From positions 1-42,199 of the forward strand of contig JBMCCQ010000003.1 of the NCBI GenBank assembly GCA_048618745.1: 42,199 bases of DNA, written 5' to 3'. The stretch is from Candidatus Nanoarchaeia archaeon. GTDB lineage: Archaea; Nanobdellota; Nanobdellia; Woesearchaeales; DSVV01. A program made the translations under genes and the position numbers. Shown piece by piece: positions 6,386 through 42,199 of this stretch. Each line of letters opens with the position of its first letter. Position 1 is the stretch's first letter. The notes beneath the pieces are model-generated. The model was not told where the DNA came from, ran no database searches, and worked only from the letters and a program-made list of their open reading frames with translations.

Positions 6386-7801
6386 CTATTCGTTCTTTTT
6401 TAGGAGCTTACTAAAAAGCCCACCTTTTTTTTTCTCCGAAGCCCCCTGATTATTCTCTTCAGATTGCTCTTTTTCAAAATACTCCTGCGCCATTTCCCTG
6501 CCGCTTGAGTTATTGTCTTCTTCCCAATTACTCCCCTGGTTTCCTTCCTCATTTGGAGGAGGAGGCATGCTGTCTTGTCCCTGAGAGTATTGTTCAGAAG
6601 CTGTTTCATATTGCTCTTGTGTTTCCTGATTAATAGACAGGTTTTGCTGCTCATTTTGGTATTGCTCTTCTTGCTCATTAGGCTGGTACTGTTCCCCATT
6701 AGAGTATTGCCCCTCATTTGGTGAGGGCATCTCGTTTTGAGAGTACTGCTCCCCGCTATTTGTGCCAGTACCTTGTGTATATTGCTGGCTCTCCTGCTCA
6801 TTGGGGGGAGGTGACGGCATTTGGCTTTCCTCAAATTGCTGTTGCATATTCTCTTGCGCATTTTCATTTAGGGGTTGTTGCTCCTCTTGATATTGCTGCT
6901 GTGTGTATTGCTCTTGCGTTTCCTGTTCATTGGAGGGAGGTGGTGGCATCTGCCCAGGCAAATCCTGTTGCTGGTTTCCCCACGACATCTGTGGTTGTTG
7001 CTGTGACTGCTCTGAAGCGAGCACCTGGTTTGCATATCCCTGCTGCTGCTCAAGCATTTGCTGAACCAGTGCATTAGTCTCCCCGCTCAATGAAGAGCTT
7101 CTGAAAAGCTTTAATATGTCATTATATAAAATTGCCTTTTCATATATGTGGCCTTCAGGAAGTTGCTGAAAGAGCTTGTTAATTTTTTCATAAGTATCAG
7201 TAGGCAGCTGTCCGTTATGGGTTTTCAGGTGTTGGTAGGCATTGTAAATCTCCTGTAAAATCACATTCTTTTTTTGCCTGAAGTCGTTGTCAGATTGCTG
7301 CTGCAGCCTGGGAAATAATGCAGCCGAAAAACTAAGTAATTCATAATTAATCCTGTTTTTCTCTTCAGAAAATATATCAGACATATTTTTTATGATCTCG
7401 TTAATCTCAATGTAGAGTTTGTATGCTGTCTGGTACTCTCCCTGGTTGAACCTGTTTGTCGCATCACTATGGAGTTTTCTTATCATCTGCTGTCTCTTGT
7501 CAAATTCTCCTCTCTGATTGTCAATTCTTTTAATTATTTCCTGGTTGATTCTTATAAGTTCATTGAAAATATACCTGTTTTCACTAAGCTGCTTTTTGGT
7601 CATGTCAGTGTATCTTGATTTGAGGTAATCAAACTCCTGAAGAGCGCTTGTAAGATTATTTTCTTTTAGCTGTTTTCTTACAGCTTCAAGCTGGTCAAAC
7701 AAATTCTCATTATCATGCTTTTGTGGGGCCTCCTTATCCATTATCTGGGCTTTGCCCCCCATGCTTTTTGCTTCTTTTTCCAAAAATTCATCAATATCCA
7801 T
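6386..7801 (-). CDS. Helical protein with a long Gln/Glu/Pro-rich repetitive tail
   Basis: 471-aa ORF in the pilus operon; repeated MP(P/S)PPxNE units; basic amphipathic C-terminus. Confidence 0.75.
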   Translation of the reverse strand: MDIDEFLEKEAKSMGGKAQIMDKEAPQKHDNENLFDQLEAVRKQLKENNLTSALQEFDYLKSRYTDMTKKQLSENRYIFNELIRINQEIIKRIDNQRGEFDKRQQMIRKLHSDATNRFNQGEYQTAYKLYIEINEIIKNMSDIFSEEKNRINYELLSFSAALFPRLQQQSDNDFRQKKNVILQEIYNAYQHLKTHNGQLPTDTYEKINKLFQQLPEGHIYEKAILYNDILKLFRSSSLSGETNALVQQMLEQQQGYANQVLASEQSQQQPQMSWGNQQQDLPGQMPPPPSNEQETQEQYTQQQYQEEQQPLNENAQENMQQQFEESQMPSPPPNEQESQQYTQGTGTNSGEQYSQNEMPSPNEGQYSNGEQYQPNEQEEQYQNEQQNLSINQETQEQYETASEQYSQGQDSMPPPPNEEGNQGSNWEEDNNSSGREMAQEYFEKEQSEENNQGASEKKKGGLFSKLLKKNE

Positions 7802-36707: not shown

Positions 36708-36833
36708 TTAGTTTCAGTAAACAAAAATATTTAAATAACTTATGGAAACCTGCTACTGACGCCTGCACTTTCGCCTGTAGCAAGCGAATTGTGTTGGCTT
36801 AGGTTATCGCCAGACACACTCAGAAAAACTTAT

Positions 36834-37064
36834 GCTGTGGTCGCATTATCTGCAAAGGGTTTCACCCTTTCGAGACTCAGGGTGCGTTTCAGTCGCTTAC
36901 GCTCCTTCAACCCCACAAAAAAAAGCGATTTATTTATGCTGCGGTCGCATAATCTGGTACTGACGCCTACGTTTTGCGCCGTAGGCACGCATGAGGGTTT
37001 CGCTTCGCTTAACCCCACAAAAAAAAGCGATTGATTTATGCTGCGGTCGCATAATCTGGTATTG
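36834..37064 (+). repeat. Tandem degenerate copies of the tRNA-Ser 5' end
   Basis: 36909-36962 vs 37011-37064: 54 bp with 2 mismatches. Third copy GCTGTGGTCGCATTATCTG at 36834-36852. Spacings 104 and 102 bp. Confidence 0.85.
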
Positions 37065-37168
37065 CGCTGGCCTTGAGCGGCGACGTATCAAAGGTTCGTA
37101 AGGCTTTGGCCTTCGCCCAAAACAGCCAGTCCCTTCGGGGATTCCCGGTTCGAATCCGGGCCGCAGCG
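37040..37168 (+). tRNA. tRNA-Ser(UGA) with a 46-nt intron at 37/38 (37078-37123)
   Basis: Acceptor GCTGCGG/CCGCAGC, anticodon stem CTGGC/GCCAG, anticodon TGA 37074-37076, long variable arm, GGTTCGAATCC T-arm, G discriminator, BHB-like splice motif; CCA not encoded. Confidence 0.93.
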
Positions 37169-37169
37169 G

Positions 37170-37177
37170 TTTTTTTT
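37170..37177 (+). terminator. Oligo-T terminator of tRNA-Ser
   Basis: T8 run just after the tRNA 3' end. Confidence 0.6.
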
Positions 37178-37184
37178 CTTGACT

Positions 37185-37239
37185 TAAGTGGGCTTGAGCG
37201 AATGACATGAGCGAAACTTTGTAAATCTTTTTTACAAAG
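37185..37239. repeat. 55-bp direct repeat with a hairpin (copy 1; copy 2 at 42145-42199)
   Basis: Identical copies containing CTTTGTAAA-TCTTT-TTTACAAAG. Confidence 0.9.
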
Positions 37240-37308
37240 CCAGCAAAGCTTAATAGACAGTCTGTTGCTTTGCGTTGTGCACCTCGGTCCCGGTTGCCGA
37301 AAGAAGCG

Positions 37309-37342
37309 GGGCCGCAGCGTCAAACTAAAAGTTCAAATCCGT
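37309..37342. repeat. 34-bp direct repeat starting with the tRNA 3' end (copy 2 at 42086-42119)
   Basis: GGGCCGCAGCGTCAAACTAAAAGTTCAAATCCGT is identical at both sites. Confidence 0.9.
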
Positions 37343-37532
37343 AAAGTAAGGGGGCATAGTTTTTGAATTAGCAAAAGGCTTTAATAAATATCTCTTAGTT
37401 GAGGCTTTGTGTGTTGAAAAATTTTCAAGTTTACTATCTAAAAATATTTAAATCCTATTCTTTGTCATGTAGTGAAACTAATAAGAAATTTTACAGGTCT
37501 CAATTCCAAAAGTAAAAGAATGTTCATAGAAA

Positions 37533-38054
37533 ATGCAAGAAATAACATTTGAGAGGATAGTAAGAGATTTGGCTTACGATGCAACAATTAGAAAAAACTT
37601 GAAGACTCATCCATGGGAGCATACTGAAAGAGTTCTCTCTTATTCAAAAGATATTCTAGAAAATGAATATAATCATCTTTCCATTTACAAAGAGATAACT
37701 GTTGCATCTTTGTTTCATGATGTAGGCAGATTGCGCGACGGAAAAGATATTGAACATGGCTATCGGAGTGCACTGATCCTTGATAATATGCTTCCATGTT
37801 TTCCTTTTTATTTTGATGTAAGTAGCGTAAGATATGCCATCCTAAACCACTCTCGAGAAGAAGGAGATGTGGGTAAGTATCCTATTATTGATAATTTCAA
37901 TACTAGTGTTGATAAAAGAATTGTGGCTTGCCTATGGGATGCTGACCGGCTTGATCTCACAAGACTAAAAGAATTTCCCAATGTGAACAAGTCTTATCTA
38001 AGCACAGAATATGGTAAATGTATCGCTGATTTAATCAATGCAGGAGTTGGATAA
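37533..38054 (+). CDS. HD-domain phosphohydrolase
   Basis: 'HPWEHTERV', 'LFHDVGR', 'EHGYRSA', 'ILNHS', 'WDADRLD'. Confidence 0.9.
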   Translation: MQEITFERIVRDLAYDATIRKNLKTHPWEHTERVLSYSKDILENEYNHLSIYKEITVASLFHDVGRLRDGKDIEHGYRSALILDNMLPCFPFYFDVSSVRYAILNHSREEGDVGKYPIIDNFNTSVDKRIVACLWDADRLDLTRLKEFPNVNKSYLSTEYGKCIADLINAGVG

Positions 38055-38056
38055 TT

Positions 38057-39406
38057 ATGCCAAATATAACTATAAATCAAACAATAGATGATTTTGTTAA
38101 TCATTATGATAATTTAGGGTATAAGCCTGTTAGCAGGTGCTCATTTGAAACACCAATGGGTTCGGGGGCTACATTTCCTTTCTGCTGTGCAATGTTTTAT
38201 GAAGATTTTTACGAAAGTAAGATTAAAGAGGTGGATTCTAAAAAGCAAGTGATAACACAATCATGCATAAGGACAGATAATTATTATAGAGCAGGTTTTT
38301 CAAATAAACATTTATCATACTTCCGAATGCTTGGTCTATTTGATTTCAATTGTAGAGATTCCAATGAAGTAGTTTTTCAAATTTTGGATTATCTTACAGA
38401 AACCATTCAAAACGACAGGTTGTATGTAAATTTGCCAGAAAACTCTTCAATTGGCAAAGATGTAGGGCAGATTTGCAGAATAAAAGGTGTAAGGACTACT
38501 TTTATCCCTAAACAAAAATTACTATGGAATACAAACCTGAATACTGAGAAGTATGGTGTTCGTGTTGAGTTTAATTACCAAAAGGATGACTCAGAGATGG
38601 AGCTATGGAACCTTTCATTTATATATGACCCTGACACCAACCAACGAATAATCGATTCAGGTATATGTGCTGAAAGATTAAATGCGGCTCAAAATGATTT
38701 GAAATCTGTCTTTAGTTGCCCAGATATAAAAAGACAAAAGGAAAATTTATCTAAACTATTTATAGGCAACAAGAATAAGCGATATTTTCTAAATTCCTTT
38801 TGCGAAAATACTGGTAATTCCAAAATAAATCAATATGAACTCAATTTATTGATCGACTTGTCTTTAACTATCAATGCACTTTATGAACAAGGAGTTAAAC
38901 CTGCATCAAAAAAGGATAAGAAAGGTCAACACATGCGTCAGTTAATTAAAAAATTCCTAGCAAATATGTTCGTATTTGGTTATGATTATCATAGGATAGG
39001 TGAAACTATTCCTTACAAGTTTTCTGAAGAAATCCAATACGAAGTCCAATTATTTGACAAAGCATTAAGAATTGATTCAATTGACTCATATTTCCAAATT
39101 GAAAGAGGTATTAAGGAAGGAAAATTATCTAAACTAGACAAAGTTAATAAAGCGAAATCCAAAGAATTAACCTGTGAAAAGTTGGTCTTACAAAGAATTA
39201 ACTCTTATGGTAAAACCTCTCTGGAGGAATTGAAAAAATTATCAAATGGTATGCCTCTAGAAATAATGGTTGATTGGGCAGTTAATTCTGATATTTCAGT
39301 AGATTTGTGTGAAGATATCTCCACAAAAGACGGGCTCAAACAGCTATGCAATAGATACAGAATCAACAAGTCCTTAATTAATAGAATCAAAGGGGATGAA
39401 AAATGA
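38057..39406 (+). CDS. Truncated, divergent alanyl-tRNA synthetase paralog (catalytic + helical region only)
   Basis: 'QSCIRTDN...KHLSYFRMLGLF' (motif 2), 'ELWNLSF', 'IDSGICAERL' (motif 3), 'GVKPA...GQHMRQLIKK'; no editing or C-Ala domain visible. Confidence 0.8.
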   Translation: MPNITINQTIDDFVNHYDNLGYKPVSRCSFETPMGSGATFPFCCAMFYEDFYESKIKEVDSKKQVITQSCIRTDNYYRAGFSNKHLSYFRMLGLFDFNCRDSNEVVFQILDYLTETIQNDRLYVNLPENSSIGKDVGQICRIKGVRTTFIPKQKLLWNTNLNTEKYGVRVEFNYQKDDSEMELWNLSFIYDPDTNQRIIDSGICAERLNAAQNDLKSVFSCPDIKRQKENLSKLFIGNKNKRYFLNSFCENTGNSKINQYELNLLIDLSLTINALYEQGVKPASKKDKKGQHMRQLIKKFLANMFVFGYDYHRIGETIPYKFSEEIQYEVQLFDKALRIDSIDSYFQIERGIKEGKLSKLDKVNKAKSKELTCEKLVLQRINSYGKTSLEELKKLSNGMPLEIMVDWAVNSDISVDLCEDISTKDGLKQLCNRYRINKSLINRIKGDEK

Positions 39407-40482
39407 CTACTAAAAATGGCTTAACTGTTTTGTCTTTTGTTCATAATAATGATTACTTTAGGCTACCGACAATCCAAGCATACAATTTTTCTGAAAAAGC
39501 TTTAGATAATTTTGAACAGAAAGGAAATTATGTTCCCCTAGCCTTGGATATTAACCTTCAAACACCTTGCAATATTAATTGCACATATTGCTATACAAGT
39601 CATGGAAATGAAGATAGGTTTGAGGTTTCTCAGAAAATATCCAAGTTGAACGAATCTGAGTTGGAAGAGGTGTTAAGTCAATTTGGGAATCTAGGAGGGA
39701 CCACAATATTTCTCTGTAGCGAGGGAGAACCATTAATAAATAGAGATTATTTTATGAATTTTGCAAAGGCTACAAAAAGTGCTGGATTAAATCTTTTAAC
39801 TTATACAAACGCTACAATGCTTGACAAAGATTACGCTGAGGAATTGCTAGAAAATGATGTAAATTTAGTTGTTAAACTTGAATCTTTGGAACCCGAAAAA
39901 AATGATCAAATTCTGAGACCTAGGAATTTATATAGATACACAAATCATGATGGAGTTTCAATCCCACAGCAGCTGAAAAATGTCATAGATGTTTATTCAG
40001 ATAACAGGGATAAATTAGCAATTTCAACTATGCTTACGGGCCTAAACTATGAGGATATTATGCCACTTCGAAAGTATGCTTATGAGAAATTGGGTGTGGC
40101 CCATTTCTTGAAACAATTGTATATTTATGGCCAAGCTGATAAAAATTCTGCACTCTTATCGGTAAATTCTAGTGACTTAAGAAAGTTAGAAGAATCATTA
40201 TATGAGTTTGATGAAAGGGCTGGTTTCAGTTATCCTATGGGAGAAGCAGATCAATATTCTTATGATATTAGGAGGTTTCTCAATAATCACTTAAATCCTG
40301 AAGGTTTTCCTGCTCGAATATTTGGCCATCCTCGTGGTGGGGTTTACCATAATTCTGATGCGGTTAATGTAAAATTTGGTTTTCAAGAAGGCCATTTTGT
40401 TAGTATGAGAGATAATACGGAAAAAATAAATATGCCAAGATATTTTAATAAAATATATCGTTTTATTACAAACGGTTACTAA
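39403..40482 (+). CDS. Radical SAM enzyme
   Basis: CNINCTYC (CxxxCxxC), 'EGEPL', 'YTNAT'; no C-terminal SPASM cysteines. Confidence 0.92.
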   Translation: MTTKNGLTVLSFVHNNDYFRLPTIQAYNFSEKALDNFEQKGNYVPLALDINLQTPCNINCTYCYTSHGNEDRFEVSQKISKLNESELEEVLSQFGNLGGTTIFLCSEGEPLINRDYFMNFAKATKSAGLNLLTYTNATMLDKDYAEELLENDVNLVVKLESLEPEKNDQILRPRNLYRYTNHDGVSIPQQLKNVIDVYSDNRDKLAISTMLTGLNYEDIMPLRKYAYEKLGVAHFLKQLYIYGQADKNSALLSVNSSDLRKLEESLYEFDERAGFSYPMGEADQYSYDIRRFLNNHLNPEGFPARIFGHPRGGVYHNSDAVNVKFGFQEGHFVSMRDNTEKINMPRYFNKIYRFITNGY

Positions 40483-40483
40483 G

Positions 40484-41374
40484 ATGTTGAGATACAACAG
40501 ACTTAAAGGCAGCGAATTGTATGTGTCCAATCTTGCTTTAGGACTATGGGGTATAAGTAGTTGGGATCCCAAATGTGGCCAATTATCTCAAAAAGAGTTG
40601 GTAGATTATGCTTTGAAGAATGGAATTAATTTTTTTGATACAGCATTTGTGTATGGAAATGGAAATTCAGAGTGCCAGTTGAATGATGTTTCAAACAAAG
40701 CAGTAATTTCTACAAAAGTCCCTTCACAATCAAAAGATTATCTGAACAAGCAGCCTAAGGATTGTTATCCTCTTGATTTCATGCAAGACTGTATTGATGT
40801 GTCAATTCAAAGGCTAAATAGCAATTGTATTGATATTCTTCATTTGCATAATTGGAATCCGCAATGGACTAACAGTGAGTCTAGATATATTTTTGAATAT
40901 ATTGAGGAACTTAAAAATACTCAGACTATAAAATCATTCGGAATATCTTTACCTAAATTAAATACCTATAGTATTGAGGATTTTTCGATGTTAGCAAGGG
41001 AGAATATGGTTGACTGTTTGCAAGTGCATTATAACCTTATAGATCAAGAGAGTGAGAAATTAATACAATATTTTATAAATAACAAGAAATCTGTATTTAT
41101 AAAAAGCCCTTATAAACATGGACTCATTGGAAAATCACTTTCAGAATTGGATAGTCTAGAAGAATATGACTTTAGAAAAAAAAGATTTACAAAGCAAGAA
41201 TTTAATGATATTAAGGAGGAGTTACTTGAGAAATCTAAAAGATATAATGTTCGGATTAAGGATCTGGACAAAGTGACTTTAAGAGACTGTAATGCAACTG
41301 GTGCCACATGCATTATAGTGGGGATGAGGGACCTAGAAACTATTACTCGGAACTTAGAATCAATTACAGAATAA
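40484..41374 (+). CDS. Aldo/keto reductase
   Basis: 'GINFFDTAFVYGNGNSE', 'ISTKV', 'IDILHLH', 'QVHYNL'. Confidence 0.92.
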   Translation: MLRYNRLKGSELYVSNLALGLWGISSWDPKCGQLSQKELVDYALKNGINFFDTAFVYGNGNSECQLNDVSNKAVISTKVPSQSKDYLNKQPKDCYPLDFMQDCIDVSIQRLNSNCIDILHLHNWNPQWTNSESRYIFEYIEELKNTQTIKSFGISLPKLNTYSIEDFSMLARENMVDCLQVHYNLIDQESEKLIQYFINNKKSVFIKSPYKHGLIGKSLSELDSLEEYDFRKKRFTKQEFNDIKEELLEKSKRYNVRIKDLDKVTLRDCNATGATCIIVGMRDLETITRNLESITE

Positions 41375-41388
41375 TAGGATATGTTAAG

Positions 41389-41985
41389 ATGCCAAAGATG
41401 TTTTGTATTGGAGGAGGGGATTTAAGAAAGGACAATAAAAATATGAAATATATTCATAATGACTTGATAAATTTTTCTGGGATTACTGCTCCAAGAATAC
41501 TTTTTATTCCTACTGCAAGTAATGATTCAGTCTCATATTTTAAAATTCTTTCAACACATTTTAGAGCTGAATTTAATTTGAAGATTGATGTATTGTATCT
41601 GACTGATAATAATTATAAAACTAAGATACACTCAACTGATATAGTATATGTTGGGGGAGGGAATACCAAATTGTTGCTTGACGAATGGGTGCAAAAAGGT
41701 ATTGACAAAATTTTACTTAATGCTGCCAAAAAAGATATAATTATGAGTGGAATTAGCGCAGGAGCCATATGCTGGTTTGAGAAATGTTTAGCGAACTCTG
41801 GACATAAAAAGGAGGTTTTAGAAGGCCTGGGGTTGATAAAAGGATTGGGCGTTCCTCATTATAAAAACGGAACTCTAAGGAATTTTCAAGTTGATAAACC
41901 AATGATTGGAATGAGTGATTATAGTATTTACAAGGTGGATAATGGAAATGTTCACACCTCAGGTAATGTTTCAATTTTTGAATAG
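41389..41985 (+). CDS. Peptidase E (family S51)
   Basis: 'FIPTAS', 'YVGGGNT', nucleophile 'GISAGA', 'GLGLI...VPHY'; start at ATG 41389. Confidence 0.9.
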   Translation: MPKMFCIGGGDLRKDNKNMKYIHNDLINFSGITAPRILFIPTASNDSVSYFKILSTHFRAEFNLKIDVLYLTDNNYKTKIHSTDIVYVGGGNTKLLLDEWVQKGIDKILLNAAKKDIIMSGISAGAICWFEKCLANSGHKKEVLEGLGLIKGLGVPHYKNGTLRNFQVDKPMIGMSDYSIYKVDNGNVHTSGNVSIFE

Positions 41986-42078
41986 ATAAATTTTTTGCCA
42001 TATAATTGAAATCTTGTTGATGTTTACTTTTAGATTACTCAGTAACAATATTTTTTCCAATTGGAATTAAATGTTCCC

Positions 42079-42199
42079 CGAATCCGGGCCGCAGCGTCAA
42101 ACTAAAAGTTCAAATCCGTCTTTTTCTTATTATTTTTCTGCTACTAAGTGGGCTTGAGCGAATGACATGAGCGAAACTTTGTAAATCTTTTTTACAAAG
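42079..42199. repeat. Right-hand att-like composite repeat (tRNA 3' end + 34-bp + 55-bp blocks)
   Basis: Matches 37151-37168, 37309-37342 and 37185-37239; runs off the window edge. Confidence 0.9.

What the first reader, a model, noticed from the sequence alone, without database searches (positions are those of the whole stretch)
37533..41985. Five-gene island with an AlaRS paralog, radical SAM, HD hydrolase, aldo-keto reductase and peptidase E: possible aminoacyl-nucleoside biosynthetic/defence cluster
Seen: five co-oriented genes with gaps of 14 nt or less (one pair overlapping), AT-rich, inside tRNA-derived direct repeats. The AlaRS-like protein keeps the class II motif 2/3 Arg residues but has altered substrate-pocket residues (FRMLGLF vs FEMLGNF; DSGIC vs DTGMG) and lacks editing and C-Ala domains. 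Established: truncated aaRS paralogs act as amide ligases in natural-product and protein modification (AlaRS-like enzymes in ascamycin biosynthesis; EpmA), and peptidases can activate or detoxify aminoacyl-nucleotides. Inference: radical SAM + AKR + HD tailor a nucleotide/sugar, the paralog aminoacylates it, and peptidase E provides release or immunity. No exporter is present, so an intracellular antiviral or modification role is equally possible.
Basis: partly seen in the sequence, partly recalled or inferred. Interest (0 to 1): 0.82.

Follow-up and report, generated by a model that had tools for sequence, protein, structure and literature searches.

The report
Mobile cassette with an AlaRS-fragment paralog
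A small foreign DNA island next to a tRNA gene in a tiny archaeal genome carries a rare enzyme set built around a shortened, remodelled copy of alanyl-tRNA synthetase, which probably attaches an amino acid to a modified small molecule rather than serving protein synthesis.

Summary
Five co-oriented genes sit at 37533-41985: HD, a 449-aa AlaRS-like protein, radical SAM, aldo-keto reductase and S51 peptidase. They lie in a 4.7-kb segment flanked by a 40-nt direct repeat derived from the 3' end of tRNA-Ser(UGA). This is the lowest-GC segment of its size in the genome (32.3% against 37.6%).

The AlaRS-like protein is not the housekeeping enzyme or a split half of it.
- 23 of 31 genomes searched (G000 and 30 relatives) carry a full archaeal AlaRS.
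- Only this genome among them has the paralog.
- In a 95%-complete genome (G366) a paralog coexists with a normal AlaRS.

Four genes (AlaRS-like, S51, radical SAM, AKR) recur together in two other lineages. In G366 they are bracketed by a 223-nt direct repeat. HD is not part of the recurring core.

The paralog models as the AlaRS catalytic fragment, with the aminoacylation and tRNA-recognition domains (Z 28.8). It keeps the adenylate-forming residues, but its amino-acid pocket is remodelled.

My best reading, by inference, is this. The radical SAM enzyme and the reductase tailor a nucleotide- or sugar-like acceptor. The paralog aminoacylates it using ATP. S51 removes the amino acid again. The product is unknown. 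The nearest precedent is AcmF of ascamycin biosynthesis, which works differently.

The parts
37040..37168 (+). tRNA-Ser(UGA) with a 46-nt intron and a long variable arm; the insertion target region
   Evidence: Rfam RF00005 at 43 bits. ARAGORN -i gives tRNA-Ser(tga) at 37039-37169. One search's 'tRNA-Glu 37077-37168' is a miscall made without intron search.
37170..37302 (.). Dispersed ~130-nt repeat ('A-X'). It follows the tRNA and is itself followed by a degenerate copy of the tRNA 3' end.
   Evidence: A second copy lies on contig C10 after tRNA-Thr(CGU), again followed by a duplicate of that tRNA's 3' end. The first 70 nt recur at 42130-42199. Folding z-score is only -2.0.
37302..37342 (.). 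Left direct repeat: degenerate tRNA-Ser 3' end plus 23 nt
   Evidence: the repeat finder families D3/D4. A 34-nt exact match to 42086-42119. The Logan unitig of the island starts at 37313 (record 7).
37533..38054 (+). HD-domain phosphohydrolase, 173 aa; accessory gene found only in this copy of the cassette
   Evidence: Pfam HD 21.6 bits against a cut-off of 22. The HD dipeptide is visible in the sequence. No HD gene is adjacent in the other two cassettes.
38057..39406 (+). AlaRS catalytic-fragment paralog, 449 aa: aminoacylation domain plus helical tRNA-recognition domain, no editing or C-Ala domain
   Evidence: AF2 pLDDT 89.4. VIA Z 28.8 over residues 3-436 against residues 1-451 of the A. 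aeolicus AlaRS fragment. Retains 19 of 50 canonical-invariant columns, including R72, N185, D200, G202 and R207.
39403..40482 (+). Radical SAM enzyme, 359 aa, with a single CxxxCxxC cluster motif and no SPASM or twitch cysteines
   Evidence: Pfam 60.9 bits. C56, C60 and C63 are invariant in 8 sequences. The family is rare, 6 proteins including itself. Fold matches are tied between SuiB/SkfB (Z 19-20), viperins (Z 18.4-19.1) and BlsE (Z 18.3).
40484..41374 (+). Aldo-keto reductase, 296 aa
   Evidence: Pfam Aldo_ket_red 97.9 bits. It is 30-31% identical to the AKRs of the other two cassettes.
41389..41985 (+). S51 (peptidase E-like) serine hydrolase, 198 aa; the longest ORF starts at 41308
   Evidence: Pfam 117.5 bits. 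The Ser of GxSAG and a His are invariant in 21 sequences. The 198-aa form equals public gene call P0159.
42079..42119 (.). Right direct repeat: exact copy of the last 18 nt of tRNA-Ser plus the same 23 nt as on the left
   Evidence: The Logan unitig of the island ends at 42096 (record 7).
42130..42199 (.). Second copy of repeat A; the contig ends inside it
   Evidence: 91% identical over 70 nt, with the last 55 nt exact. In same-genus genome G002 the order 'tRNA 3' fragment - 23 nt - A - X' is contiguous, with no island in between.

Best explanation
**Shown.** A 4.7-kb, low-GC island lies beside tRNA-Ser. It carries a rare, horizontally moving four-gene core made of two modules: AlaRS-fragment paralog -> S51 hydrolase, and radical SAM -> aldo-keto reductase. 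In this copy an HD phosphohydrolase gene is added. The paralog is an accessory enzyme, not the cell's AlaRS. It has the fold of the AlaRS catalytic fragment and keeps the residues that canonical AlaRS never varies around the ATP/aminoacyl-adenylate site. The residues lining the amino-acid pocket are replaced in a consistent way.

**Inferred mechanism.**
1. The single-cluster radical SAM enzyme performs a radical dehydration or rearrangement on a ribose- or sugar-like substrate and leaves a carbonyl.
2. The AKR reduces that carbonyl with NAD(P)H. The net result is deoxygenation, as in the AprD4/AprD3 pair.
3. A phosphatase (HD here, a histidine phosphatase next to the metagenome copy) removes a phosphate.
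4. The paralog activates an amino acid with ATP. It is probably not alanine, or not only alanine. The paralog transfers it to the tailored acceptor, which sits where A76 of tRNA would sit.
5. The S51 serine hydrolase removes the aminoacyl group again, for activation, self-protection or recycling.

The product would be an aminoacylated nucleoside- or sugar-like compound. Whether it serves antagonism or antiviral defence is open.
For: **Accessory status**
- 23 of 31 genomes searched (G000 and 30 relatives) have a full archaeal AlaRS above the TIGR03683 cut-off, including same-genus G002 at 846 bits.
- The paralog profile hits strongly only G000 among those 31 genomes.
- G366 is 95% complete. It holds a 577-aa AlaRS at 431 bits and also a 394-aa paralog.

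**Rarity and patchiness**
- 7 proteins at E <= 1e-30 among 1.84 billion representatives.
- Strong paralog hits in 2 of 401 genomes of the phylum.
- The radical SAM family is found in 1 of 401 genomes of G366's order.

**Recurrence of the core**
- The metagenome locus has AKR (-), radical SAM (-), AlaRS-like (+) and S51 (+).
- G366 has S51 (-), AlaRS-like (-), radical SAM (+) and AKR (+).

**Mobility**
- Direct repeats of 40 nt here and 223 nt at 99% identity in G366.
- GC lower than all 592 genome windows of equal length.
- G002 has the flanking sequence contiguous, without the island.
- A contig in run X4 follows 37232-37342 and then runs on into unlike sequence (record 28 and table 7).

**Modularity**
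- G366 against the metagenome copy: radical SAM 79% and AKR 76% identical, but AlaRS-like 33%, and S51 gives no BLASTP hit at E <= 1e-3.

**Catalytic competence of the paralog**
- R72, H85, W157, E171, E182, W184, N185, D200, G202, E206 and R207 are invariant in 11 family members.
- These residues match columns conserved at 90% or more in 93 canonical-type AlaRS.
- The canonical 100% Val becomes S/A/G at position 187. The canonical 100% Gly becomes C/S/A at position 204.

**Nucleotide theme**
- Clade members P0013 and P0014 are fusions of the AlaRS-like part with a Pol-beta nucleotidyltransferase domain.
- The metagenome neighbourhood holds a ribazole-phosphatase-like gene, kinases and a weak nucleotidyltransferase match.
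- The radical SAM model overlays almost the whole viperin chain at Z about 19.

**Precedents**
- Radical SAM dehydratase plus NADPH reductase giving deoxygenation: passages of PMC5461906.
- A truncated AlaRS-like enzyme working with a de-alanylating hydrolase in an aminoacyl-nucleoside pathway: passages of PMC12945691.
Against: - No acceptor, product or amino acid is shown; steps 1-5 are all inference.
- The radical SAM fold match is tied between peptide maturases, viperins and BlsE. The NCBIfam viperin score is 47.5 against a cut-off of 180.
- The paralog keeps the whole helical tRNA-recognition domain, with invariant R294 and a Lys/Arg-rich motif. This fits an RNA acceptor at least as well as a small molecule.
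- The S51 and AKR genes come from very large families. The three cassettes' S51 genes are not each other's nearest relatives, so their presence could be less specific than it looks.
- There is no exporter, regulator or immunity target copy in any of the three loci.
- Only three independent loci could be inspected. The gene contexts of the other family members (P0005-P0011, P0154-P0158) could not be fetched.
Confidence: 0.4

Rival explanations
1. **RNA acceptor.** The paralog is a genuine specialised synthetase. It charges a tRNA or another RNA 3' end with a non-alanine or non-canonical amino acid. The radical SAM enzyme and AKR (plus HD) make or tailor that amino acid. S51 acts as a free-standing editing or deacylating factor, or frees the amino acid from a dipeptide.
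For: - The model covers both domains of the AlaRS catalytic fragment (Z 28.8, residues 3-436). From recall, that fragment alone aminoacylates tRNA-Ala.
- The adenylation residues are kept.
- The editing domain is missing and a separate hydrolase sits next door.
- Clade members are fused to a Pol-beta nucleotidyltransferase with poly(A)-polymerase-like palm matches.
- AcmF keeps the same domain because it binds tRNA.
Against: - The Asn that is 90% conserved in canonical enzymes in the P-S-N motif is variable in the paralogs (S/G/Q/K/N/P/A). By recall, this Asn reads G3:U70.
- No tRNA or tRNA-like gene lies inside any cassette.
- The flanking repeats do not fold better than shuffles (z -0.5 to -2.0).
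- The radical SAM and AKR genes show no similarity to known amino-acid-tailoring enzymes beyond the superfamily level.
Confidence: 0.25
2. **Antiviral defence cassette.** The radical SAM enzyme works like a prokaryotic viperin and makes a chain-terminating nucleotide. AKR, AlaRS-like and S51 mask and unmask it.
For: - PADLOC pVip models match at E 1.6e-14 here and 9.4e-14 in G366.
- The viperin fold overlays at Z 18.4-19.1.
- The distribution is patchy, the cassette is flanked by repeats, and it has low GC.
- Modules are shuffled between cassettes.
- A ResIII helicase and RadC lie downstream in the metagenome locus.
Against: - The score is far below the NCBIfam viperin cut-off (47.5 against 180), and other radical SAM families score as well or better.
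- No other protein of the cassette matches any PADLOC model.
- No relative was found in viral contigs, phage records or plasmid records. That says nothing either way about defence.
Confidence: 0.12
3. **No joint function.** The genes are individually useful (a dipeptidase, a reductase and so on) and travel together only because they share an island.
For: - S51 and AKR are common genes in CPR/DPANN genomes.
- HD is not conserved across the cassettes.
- Gene order differs between the loci.
Against: - Two rare families always appear next to each other and next to an S51 and an AKR in all 3 loci examined, despite 27-40% identity and different flanks. The paralog family has 7 proteins at E <= 1e-30. 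The radical SAM family has 6 proteins.
- Start and stop codons overlap within the modules.
Confidence: 0.08
4. **Housekeeping AlaRS.** The paralog is the cell's AlaRS, or the alpha half of a split one, in a reduced genome.
For: - No canonical AlaRS was found in this 68%-complete genome.
- Split AlaRS exists in Nanoarchaeum (recalled, not checked here).
Against: - It scores 13 bits on the archaeal AlaRS model and 40 on the bacterial one, against cut-offs of 745 and 457.
- Same-genus G002 has a full AlaRS and no paralog.
- G366 has both.
- The gene lies in a foreign island flanked by repeats.
- The only other hit to the AlaRS model in G000 is 18 bits, in a 634-aa ORF on C44.
Confidence: 0.02

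Closest known systems
AcmF (with AcmD and AcmE) of ascamycin biosynthesis, Streptomyces sp. 80H647
   Same: AcmF is a truncated AlaRS-like protein made only of the aminoacylation and tRNA-recognition domains. It sits in a cluster that makes an aminoacyl nucleoside. A separate hydrolase (AcmE) removes the alanyl group (passages of PMC12945691). The protein here has the same two-domain architecture and a hydrolase partner.
   Different: - AcmF has lost most ATP and alanine activation residues (N219Q, D232E) and takes alanine from Ala-tRNA made by a full AlaRS homologue, AcmD. The family here keeps the matching Asn and Asp and the motif Arg residues, and no AcmD-like gene is in the cassette.
- The hydrolase here is S51, not an alpha/beta hydrolase.
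- The host is a small archaeon, not an actinomycete.
- No sulfamate or halogenation genes are present.
- I had no AcmF sequence, so the kinship was not tested.
Canonical AlaRS catalytic fragment (E. coli 1-441, A. aeolicus 1-453)
   Same: The fold matches over both domains (Z 28.6-28.8). 19 of 50 invariant columns are retained, including those around the adenylate site.
   Different: - 16-18% identity, and Pfam below its cut-off.
- The pocket Val becomes S/A/G and a Gly becomes C/S/A.
- There is a four-residue deletion in the motif 2 loop.
- The acceptor-stem-reading Asn is not conserved.
- It is encoded as a stand-alone accessory gene.
AprD4/AprD3 (radical SAM diol dehydratase plus NADPH reductase, apramycin C3' deoxygenation)
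   Same: A radical SAM enzyme is immediately followed by, and overlaps, a reductase gene. AprD4 appears among the fold matches (rank 38). The chemistry is taken from passages of PMC5461906.
   Different: - The reductase here is an AKR. What family AprD3 belongs to was not checked.
- AprD4 is not the best fold match.
- There is no aminoglycoside context.
Prokaryotic viperins (pVip)
   Same: It is a single-cluster radical SAM enzyme. The model overlays nearly the whole viperin chain at Z 18.4-19.1, rmsd 3.2-3.4. PADLOC pVip matches at E 1e-14.
   Different: 47.5 bits against a cut-off of 180 on NF038283. It has about 40 extra N-terminal residues. No partner kinase is present in this locus.
MccF-type (S66) immunity hydrolases against aminoacyl-adenylate mimics
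   Same: The logic is a serine hydrolase that removes an aminoacyl group from a nucleotide (recalled). An S66 gene lies just outside the G366 cassette.
   Different: The conserved hydrolase here is S51, not S66. The S66 gene in G366 is split into two overlapping frames and lies outside the repeat-bounded unit.

Membership tests
Housekeeping alanyl-tRNA synthetase | Scores above the curated family cut-offs (Pfam PF01411, TIGR00344, TIGR03683) | tested here: not met
   27.5 against 30.3 bits. 40.3 against 457 bits, and 13.2 against 744.7 bits.
Housekeeping alanyl-tRNA synthetase | Editing (tRNA_SAD) and C-terminal domains, in the same protein or in a partner subunit | tested here: not met
   The protein is 449 aa and the model matches only residues 1-451 of the catalytic fragment. 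The only other match to the AlaRS model in G000 is 18.2 bits, on C44. The genome is only 68% complete.
Housekeeping alanyl-tRNA synthetase | It is the only AlaRS of its genome and is present across relatives | tested here: not met
   G366 has a 431-bit AlaRS as well as the paralog. The paralog is found in 1 of 31 genomes searched (G000 and 30 relatives), while a full AlaRS is found in 23 of 31.
AlaRS catalytic-fragment fold (class II core plus helical tRNA-recognition domain) | Structural match over both domains | tested here: met
   pLDDT 89.4. Foldseek E 4e-18. VIA Z 28.8, 375 residues aligned, model residues 3-436 against chain residues 1-451.
AlaRS catalytic-fragment fold (class II core plus helical tRNA-recognition domain) | Residues that form the aminoacyl-adenylate site are conserved | tested here: met
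   R72, E171, E182, W184, N185, D200, G202, E206 and R207 are invariant in the family and equal to the canonical consensus. The roles of these residues are recalled, not tested.
AcmF-like aminoacyl-tRNA-dependent transferases | Only the aminoacylation and tRNA-recognition domains are present | tested here: met
   The description of AcmF comes from passages of PMC12945691.
AcmF-like aminoacyl-tRNA-dependent transferases | Loss of the ATP and alanine activation residues (N219Q, D232E in AcmF) | tested here: not met
   The canonical Asn (N185) and Asp (D200) are invariant here. That these correspond to AcmF positions 219 and 232 is my inference from the motifs. No AcmF sequence was aligned.
AcmF-like aminoacyl-tRNA-dependent transferases | Sequence kinship with AcmF | not tested
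Prokaryotic viperin | Score above the NF038283 cut-off | tested here: not met
   47.5 against 180 bits. W-cofactor maturase, NirJ2 and MoaA models score similarly.
Prokaryotic viperin | Single [4Fe-4S] radical SAM core with a viperin-like fold | tested here: inconclusive
   Z 18.4-19.1 to viperins, but tied with SuiB/SkfB (19.2-19.9) and BlsE (18.3). The only invariant cysteines are C56, C60, C63 and C105.
Peptidase family S51 | Pfam score, plus nucleophile Ser and His | tested here: met
   117.5 against 23.9 bits. S123 in GxSAG and H157 are invariant in 21 sequences. The triad assignment is recalled from PepE.
Aldo-keto reductase | Pfam score | tested here: met
   97.9 against 24 bits, covering profile positions 2-274 of 291.
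tRNA-targeted integrative island | Adjacent to a tRNA gene and bounded by direct repeats of its 3' end | tested here: met
tRNA-targeted integrative island | Own integrase or recombinase | tested here: not met
   None of the five ORFs is a recombinase. The only PF00589 match in the genome is on contig C11.
tRNA-targeted integrative island | Foreign composition and absence from close relatives | tested here: met
   GC is below all 592 genome windows. G002 has the flanks contiguous without the island. There is no paralog in G001-G003, which are 81-88% complete.

The most novel reading that the evidence does not exclude
This would be an archaeal, self-contained route to an aminoacyl-nucleoside translation poison of the puromycin or ascamycin type. 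A viperin-like radical SAM enzyme and an AKR would deoxygenate a nucleotide. An AlaRS catalytic fragment that still makes its own aminoacyl-adenylate would load an amino acid directly onto that free A76 mimic, with no tRNA involved. A dedicated S51 hydrolase would provide immunity or activation. The whole unit would move as a 4-5 kb repeat-flanked cassette among DPANN-type archaea. The amino-acid-specifying pair (synthetase-like enzyme and hydrolase) would be swapped independently of the tailoring pair.
Probability: 0.2. Interest if true: 0.85.

Novelty: new variant of a known kind. Interest (0 to 1): 0.6.

Why it matters
Synthetase paralogs that have left translation are a recurring source of new chemistry. 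Recalled examples are EpmA and GluQRS; aa:carrier-protein ligases appear in Table 1 of PMC9437257.

For AlaRS, full-text searches found one described truncated AlaRS-like enzyme, AcmF, which has lost adenylation; a review table also lists aa:carrier-protein ligases under AlaRS. The family here is a separate, rare clade that appears to keep adenylation while its pocket is remodelled. It is always paired with a hydrolase and with a radical SAM/reductase pair.

If the model is right, three things follow:
- It would give a tRNA-independent, ATP-driven AlaRS-derived ligase.
- It would be a first candidate secondary-metabolite or conflict cassette in DPANN-type archaea, whose genomes are usually read as stripped of such functions.
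- It would be a natural example of module swapping between the part that specifies the amino acid and the part that tailors the acceptor.

It also bears on annotation. These genes are labelled 'alanyl-tRNA synthetase' in at least one source, which could hide a missing real AlaRS in completeness estimates.

Tried and rejected
**Complex prediction.** Complex prediction on AlaRS-like (alignment A2) plus S51 (alignment A4) returned 'no answer', score 0.00 in two runs. I draw nothing from it.

**Expression.** No RNA holder was listed for the stretch. I draw nothing from it.

**Coverage in other runs.** In runs X2-X4 the island is covered only by short pieces at depth 2-4, while the left flank is covered at depth 6-11 by a variant about 98% identical. 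The tool warns that contigs show presence, not absence, and that depth is not copy number. I do not use this as evidence that the island is missing there.

**Circular or tandem form.** No joint linking about 42129 back to about 37170 was listed (table 5). The listed joints at 37067-37143 are other tRNA-Ser variants with different introns. The single 'skips 3999' joint has a 23-nt side at depth 2.3.

**Mobile-element collections.** There was no relative of the paralog or of the radical SAM enzyme in IMG/VR viral contigs. The paralog gave no match in PLSDB plasmids. The radical SAM enzyme gave no match in phage records.

**GTDB genome contigs pattern scan.** It returned only two weak ordinary AlaRS matches.

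**G563.** The radical SAM profile hit at 2.3e-31 turned out to be a different radical SAM-SPASM gene. Its cluster also holds an HD gene, a kinase and a PAPS-reductase gene, and no AlaRS-like gene. It is not counted as a cassette.

**ESM Atlas.** The look-ups for the radical SAM enzyme and the HD protein gave only generic superfamily neighbours. The PDB sequence search for HD gave E 0.41.

**RNA hypotheses for the flanking repeats.** Rfam found nothing beyond the tRNAs. Fold z-scores were -0.47, -1.56 and -2.00. ARAGORN with introns found no hidden tRNA in any cassette or flank.

**Shared att motif.** I looked for one among the three loci. Only short, weak similarities appeared.

**Tree.** The tree is FastTree only. 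It has several long branches and compositional outliers flagged by the tool. I use it only to say that the paralogs form a supported clade (100, local SH-like) apart from the roughly 590-aa and canonical enzymes. I make no claim about a donor or a root. Rows shorter than 300 aa, plus P0002 and P0003 (near-duplicates of P0004), were left out.

**Literature.** These searches returned nothing or nothing on point:
- 'alanyl-tRNA synthetase-like' + 'radical SAM': 0 papers.
- 'tRNA synthetase-like' + 'anti-phage' + 'radical SAM': 0 papers.
- Four AlaRS-like phrasings: 2 papers, of which only PMC12945691 is relevant.

Supplements are closed. The residue lists for AcmF in the primary paper and its supplements were not seen.

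Full report
**What is there.** The window is a whole 42,199-bp contig (C3) of a 0.89-Mb, 73-contig genome that is 68% complete. The organism is archaeal. Its relatives carry the archaeal-type AlaRS. Many of its tRNA genes have introns: 12 of 21 ARAGORN -i calls in the genome carry an intron mark. The relatives have genomes of 0.5-2.1 Mb, so I read it as a DPANN-type archaeon.

Pfam assigns them as follows:
- HD at 21.6 bits, marginally under its cut-off.
- tRNA-synt_2c at 27.5 bits, under its cut-off, with only residues 13-130 matching.
- Radical_SAM at 60.9 bits.
- Aldo_ket_red at 97.9 bits.
- Peptidase_S51 at 117.5 bits.

Upstream on the opposite strand lie a chorismate mutase, an arginase-family gene and a 583-aa membrane protein with no Pfam family.

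**The island and its borders.** The tRNA next door is tRNA-Ser(UGA) with a 46-nt intron at 37040-37168. The first intron-blind ARAGORN call of tRNA-Glu is wrong.

The last 18 nt of the tRNA recur exactly at 42079-42096. A 40-nt repeat (tRNA 3' end plus 23 nt; 34 nt exact) brackets the genes at 37303-37342 and 42080-42119.

Between the tRNA and the left repeat lies a dispersed element of about 130 nt (37170-37302). It recurs on contig C10 behind tRNA-Thr, again followed by a duplicated tRNA 3' end. Its first 70 nt recur at the very end of the contig (42130-42199). That is probably why the assembly stops there.

Four results point to a foreign insertion:
- In same-genus genome G002 the order 'tRNA-Ser 3' end ... 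tRNA-3'-like fragment - 23 nt - dispersed element' is contiguous, with no genes in between.
- The island is 32.3% GC against 37.6% for the genome. That is lower than every one of 592 genome windows of equal length.
- In the run that holds the window, one Logan unitig spans exactly 37313-42096, from repeat to repeat (record 7).
- In another run, a contig follows 37232-37342 and then continues into unrelated sequence (record 28 and table 7).

The island has no recombinase gene. The genome's only PF00589 match is on C11. So this is a tRNA-associated, repeat-bounded, compositionally foreign insertion whose means of movement is not encoded in it.

**The AlaRS-like protein is not the cell's AlaRS.**
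- It scores 40 bits on the bacterial alaS model (cut-off 457) and 13 bits on the archaeal model (cut-off 745).
- Among the 31 genomes searched (G000 and 30 relatives), 23 have an AlaRS above the archaeal cut-off, including same-genus G002 at 846 bits.
- A profile of the paralog finds a strong match only in G000 among those 31. The other ten matches are weak (E >= 1e-7) hits to ordinary AlaRS ORFs of 591-877 aa.
- G000 itself shows no canonical AlaRS, but it is only 68% complete.
- The decisive case is G366, a 0.6-Mb genome in 4 contigs that is 95% complete. It has a 577-aa AlaRS at 431 bits and, elsewhere, a 394-aa member of the paralog family.

**What the protein is.**
- An AlphaFold model built on 11 family members has pLDDT 89.4.
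- It matches the crystallised catalytic fragments of bacterial AlaRS over its whole length. VIA gives Z 28.8 with 375 residues aligned, model 3-436 against chain 1-451. Archaeal AlaRS gives Z about 21.5.
- It therefore contains both the class II aminoacylation domain and the helical tRNA-recognition domain, and nothing else.

I compared ten paralogs with 93 canonical-type AlaRS sequences. Of 50 columns conserved at 90% or more in the canonical set, 19 are retained in at least 80% of the paralogs. They include Q68, R72, G80, H85, F89, M91, W157, G167, E171, E182, W184, N185, D200, G202, E206 and R207. By recall, these line the ATP/aminoacyl-adenylate site.

Consistent replacements in the paralogs:
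- A 100%-conserved Val becomes S/A/G at position 187.
- A 100%-conserved Gly becomes C/S/A at position 204.
- Two Asn residues become Leu or other residues (mostly hydrophobic) at positions 94 and 155.
- There is a four-residue deletion in the motif 2 loop.
- The Asn of the P-S-N motif is variable. By recall, this Asn reads the G3:U70 pair.

My reading is that this enzyme still makes an aminoacyl-adenylate, that its amino-acid pocket is changed, and that it probably does not read tRNA-Ala in the canonical way.

**Rarity and relatives.**
- The word-indexed search of 5.8 billion clusters found 3 proteins including the query.
- The exhaustive profile search of 1.84 billion representatives found 498 proteins at E <= 1e-3, but only 7 at E <= 1e-30.
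- In a FastTree of 158 sequences, the ten paralogs, P0016 and three proteins of about 655 aa form one clade (support 100). It lies next to a second clade of 12 short AlaRS-like proteins (support 97). Both are apart from canonical bacterial-type AlaRS, from the roughly 590-aa AlaRS that many small genomes of this phylum use, and from archaeal AlaRS (see the caveats in Tried and rejected).
- Of the three proteins of about 655 aa, P0013 and P0014 match Pfam NTP_transf_2 in their C-terminal part. All three show an intact G-S ... D-x-D motif there. I read them as fusions of the AlaRS-like part with a Pol-beta-type nucleotidyltransferase domain.

**The cassette recurs.**
- Three metagenome contigs with identical sequence (one lineage) carry AKR (-), radical SAM (-), AlaRS-like (+) and S51 (+) as two divergent bicistrons.
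- G366 carries the mirror arrangement. There it is bracketed by a 223-nt direct repeat at 99% identity, with 216 nt exact.
- The flanking genes differ in all three places. Here they are chorismate mutase and tRNA-Ser. In the metagenome lineage they are a histidine phosphatase on one side and ASCH, RadC and a helicase on the other. In G366 they are NrdD/NrdG, tRNA-Lys, a protease fused to a ProRS anticodon-binding domain, S66, and then RpoB.
- HD occurs only here.
- The radical SAM enzyme belongs to an equally rare family of 6 proteins including the query.
- The cassette is very patchy. Strong paralog hits occur in 2 of 401 genomes sampled from the phylum. The radical SAM family is found in 2 of 401 genomes of the class, apart from an unrelated radical SAM-SPASM hit, and in 1 of 401 genomes of G366's order.

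**Modularity.** Pairwise identities:

| Comparison | AlaRS-like | Radical SAM | AKR | S51 |
|---|---|---|---|---|
| G000 vs metagenome | 38% | 40% | 30% | 34% |
| G366 vs metagenome | 33% | 79% | 76% | no hit at E <= 1e-3 |

The tailoring pair and the synthetase-like/hydrolase pair therefore have different histories. Either they were recombined between cassettes, or the second pair evolves far faster.

The S51 gene here has 792 relatives at E <= 1e-10. Many are in CPR bacteria and Woesearchaeota-labelled genomes, at 39-45% identity. That is closer than the S51 genes of the other cassettes. An S51 hydrolase has thus been associated with the paralog repeatedly or replaced. This argues for a functional need for that class of enzyme, and against a single inherited partner.

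**Mechanism: what is shown and what is inferred.**

Shown:
- The families, folds and conserved residues of the enzymes.
- Their linkage in three loci.
- The accessory, mobile nature of the unit.

Inferred:
- The radical SAM enzyme has only the canonical cluster cysteines. Its model overlays nearly the whole viperin chain (Z 18.4-19.1), tied with SuiB/SkfB and BlsE.
- It is always followed by an overlapping reductase gene. A radical SAM dehydratase with a reductase partner performs sugar deoxygenation in apramycin biosynthesis (passages of PMC5461906).
- Phosphatases sit beside two of the three cassettes: HD here, and a ribazole-phosphatase-like protein at 130 bits in the metagenome lineage.
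- Clade members are fused to a nucleotidyltransferase.

Together these suggest a phosphorylated ribose-type substrate. The paralog would then load an amino acid onto the tailored compound in place of A76, and S51 would take it off. The closest precedent is AcmF with AcmE in ascamycin biosynthesis. AcmF has lost adenylation and depends on Ala-tRNA, so this family would be a mechanistically different, ATP-driven variant.

The main rival keeps RNA as the acceptor, because the whole tRNA-recognition domain and a basic motif with invariant R294 are retained. A defence reading (viperin-like) is a special case that cannot be excluded. I put 0.40 on the small-molecule aminoacylation model, 0.25 on an RNA acceptor, 0.12 on defence, 0.08 on no joint function and 0.02 on a housekeeping role.

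**Verdict.** It is a new variant of a known kind, namely a synthetase paralog recruited to a tailoring pathway. No paper describing this gene combination was found.

Noticed in passing
window 36747-37064; also G000 contig C10 about 6520-6705: Upstream of tRNA-Ser lie tandem units of about 102 nt. Each holds a promoter-like A/T box and the first ~22 nt of the tRNA (copies near 36833, 36938 and the real gene at 37040). The same pattern of repeated 5' tRNA fragments precedes tRNA-Thr on C10. The origin is unexplained. They could be remnants of repeated integration, or promoter duplications.
   Followed up: partly
window 37170-37302 and 42130-42199; G000 C10 6792-6906; many contig ends in G001-G003: A ~130-nt hairpin-rich element sits directly behind tRNA genes and is followed by a duplicate of the tRNA's 3' end, like a miniature insertion with a target-site duplication. 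It is dispersed in the genus and coincides with contig ends.
   Followed up: partly
window 37077-37168: Default ARAGORN calls this tRNA-Glu(UUC). With intron search it is tRNA-Ser(UGA) at 37039-37169 with a 46-nt intron. 12 of the 21 tRNA calls in this genome carry an intron mark.
   Followed up: yes
L027 6515-7501 (G366): A 328-aa protein fuses a DUF2268 HExxH metalloprotease domain to a ProRS-type anticodon-binding domain (70 bits to the C-terminal part of ProRS models). It lies between tRNA-Lys and the cassette. It may be a tRNA-directed hydrolase.
   Followed up: no
L027 7498-8525 (G366): An S66 (LD-carboxypeptidase/MccF-type) gene is split into two overlapping reading frames. It ends 5 nt before the left 223-nt repeat of the cassette.
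   Followed up: no
L003 2074-7658 (metagenome lineage): Next to the cassette is a run of genes: DUF362, two radical SAM-SPASM genes, an AAA_18 kinase, an APH-type kinase, a weak Pol-beta nucleotidyltransferase match, and a ribazole-phosphatase-like histidine phosphatase. A similar set (PAPS reductase-like, HD, radical SAM-SPASM, kinase, second radical SAM) is on G563 contig C33 (L037).
   Followed up: partly
loci L019-L026, L038 and rows for G024, G026, G027, G029: Many small genomes of this phylum have a roughly 570-610-aa AlaRS instead of the ~850-aa archaeal form. It groups with bacterial-type AlaRS in the tree. 55 of 401 sampled genomes matched the paralog profile at 1e-15 to 1e-31 through this form, in ORFs of 567-681 aa.
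   Followed up: partly
proteins P0012-P0014: These ~655-aa proteins combine the AlaRS-like catalytic fragment with a C-terminal minimal nucleotidyltransferase (G-S...D-x-D motif) and a helical tail. Their gene context is unknown.
   Followed up: partly
L004 5847-7157 (-): A 436-aa ORF downstream of the metagenome cassette has a weak, sub-threshold match to class I LysRS (E 0.0014, 18 bits). No NCBIfam or PADLOC family matches.
   Followed up: no
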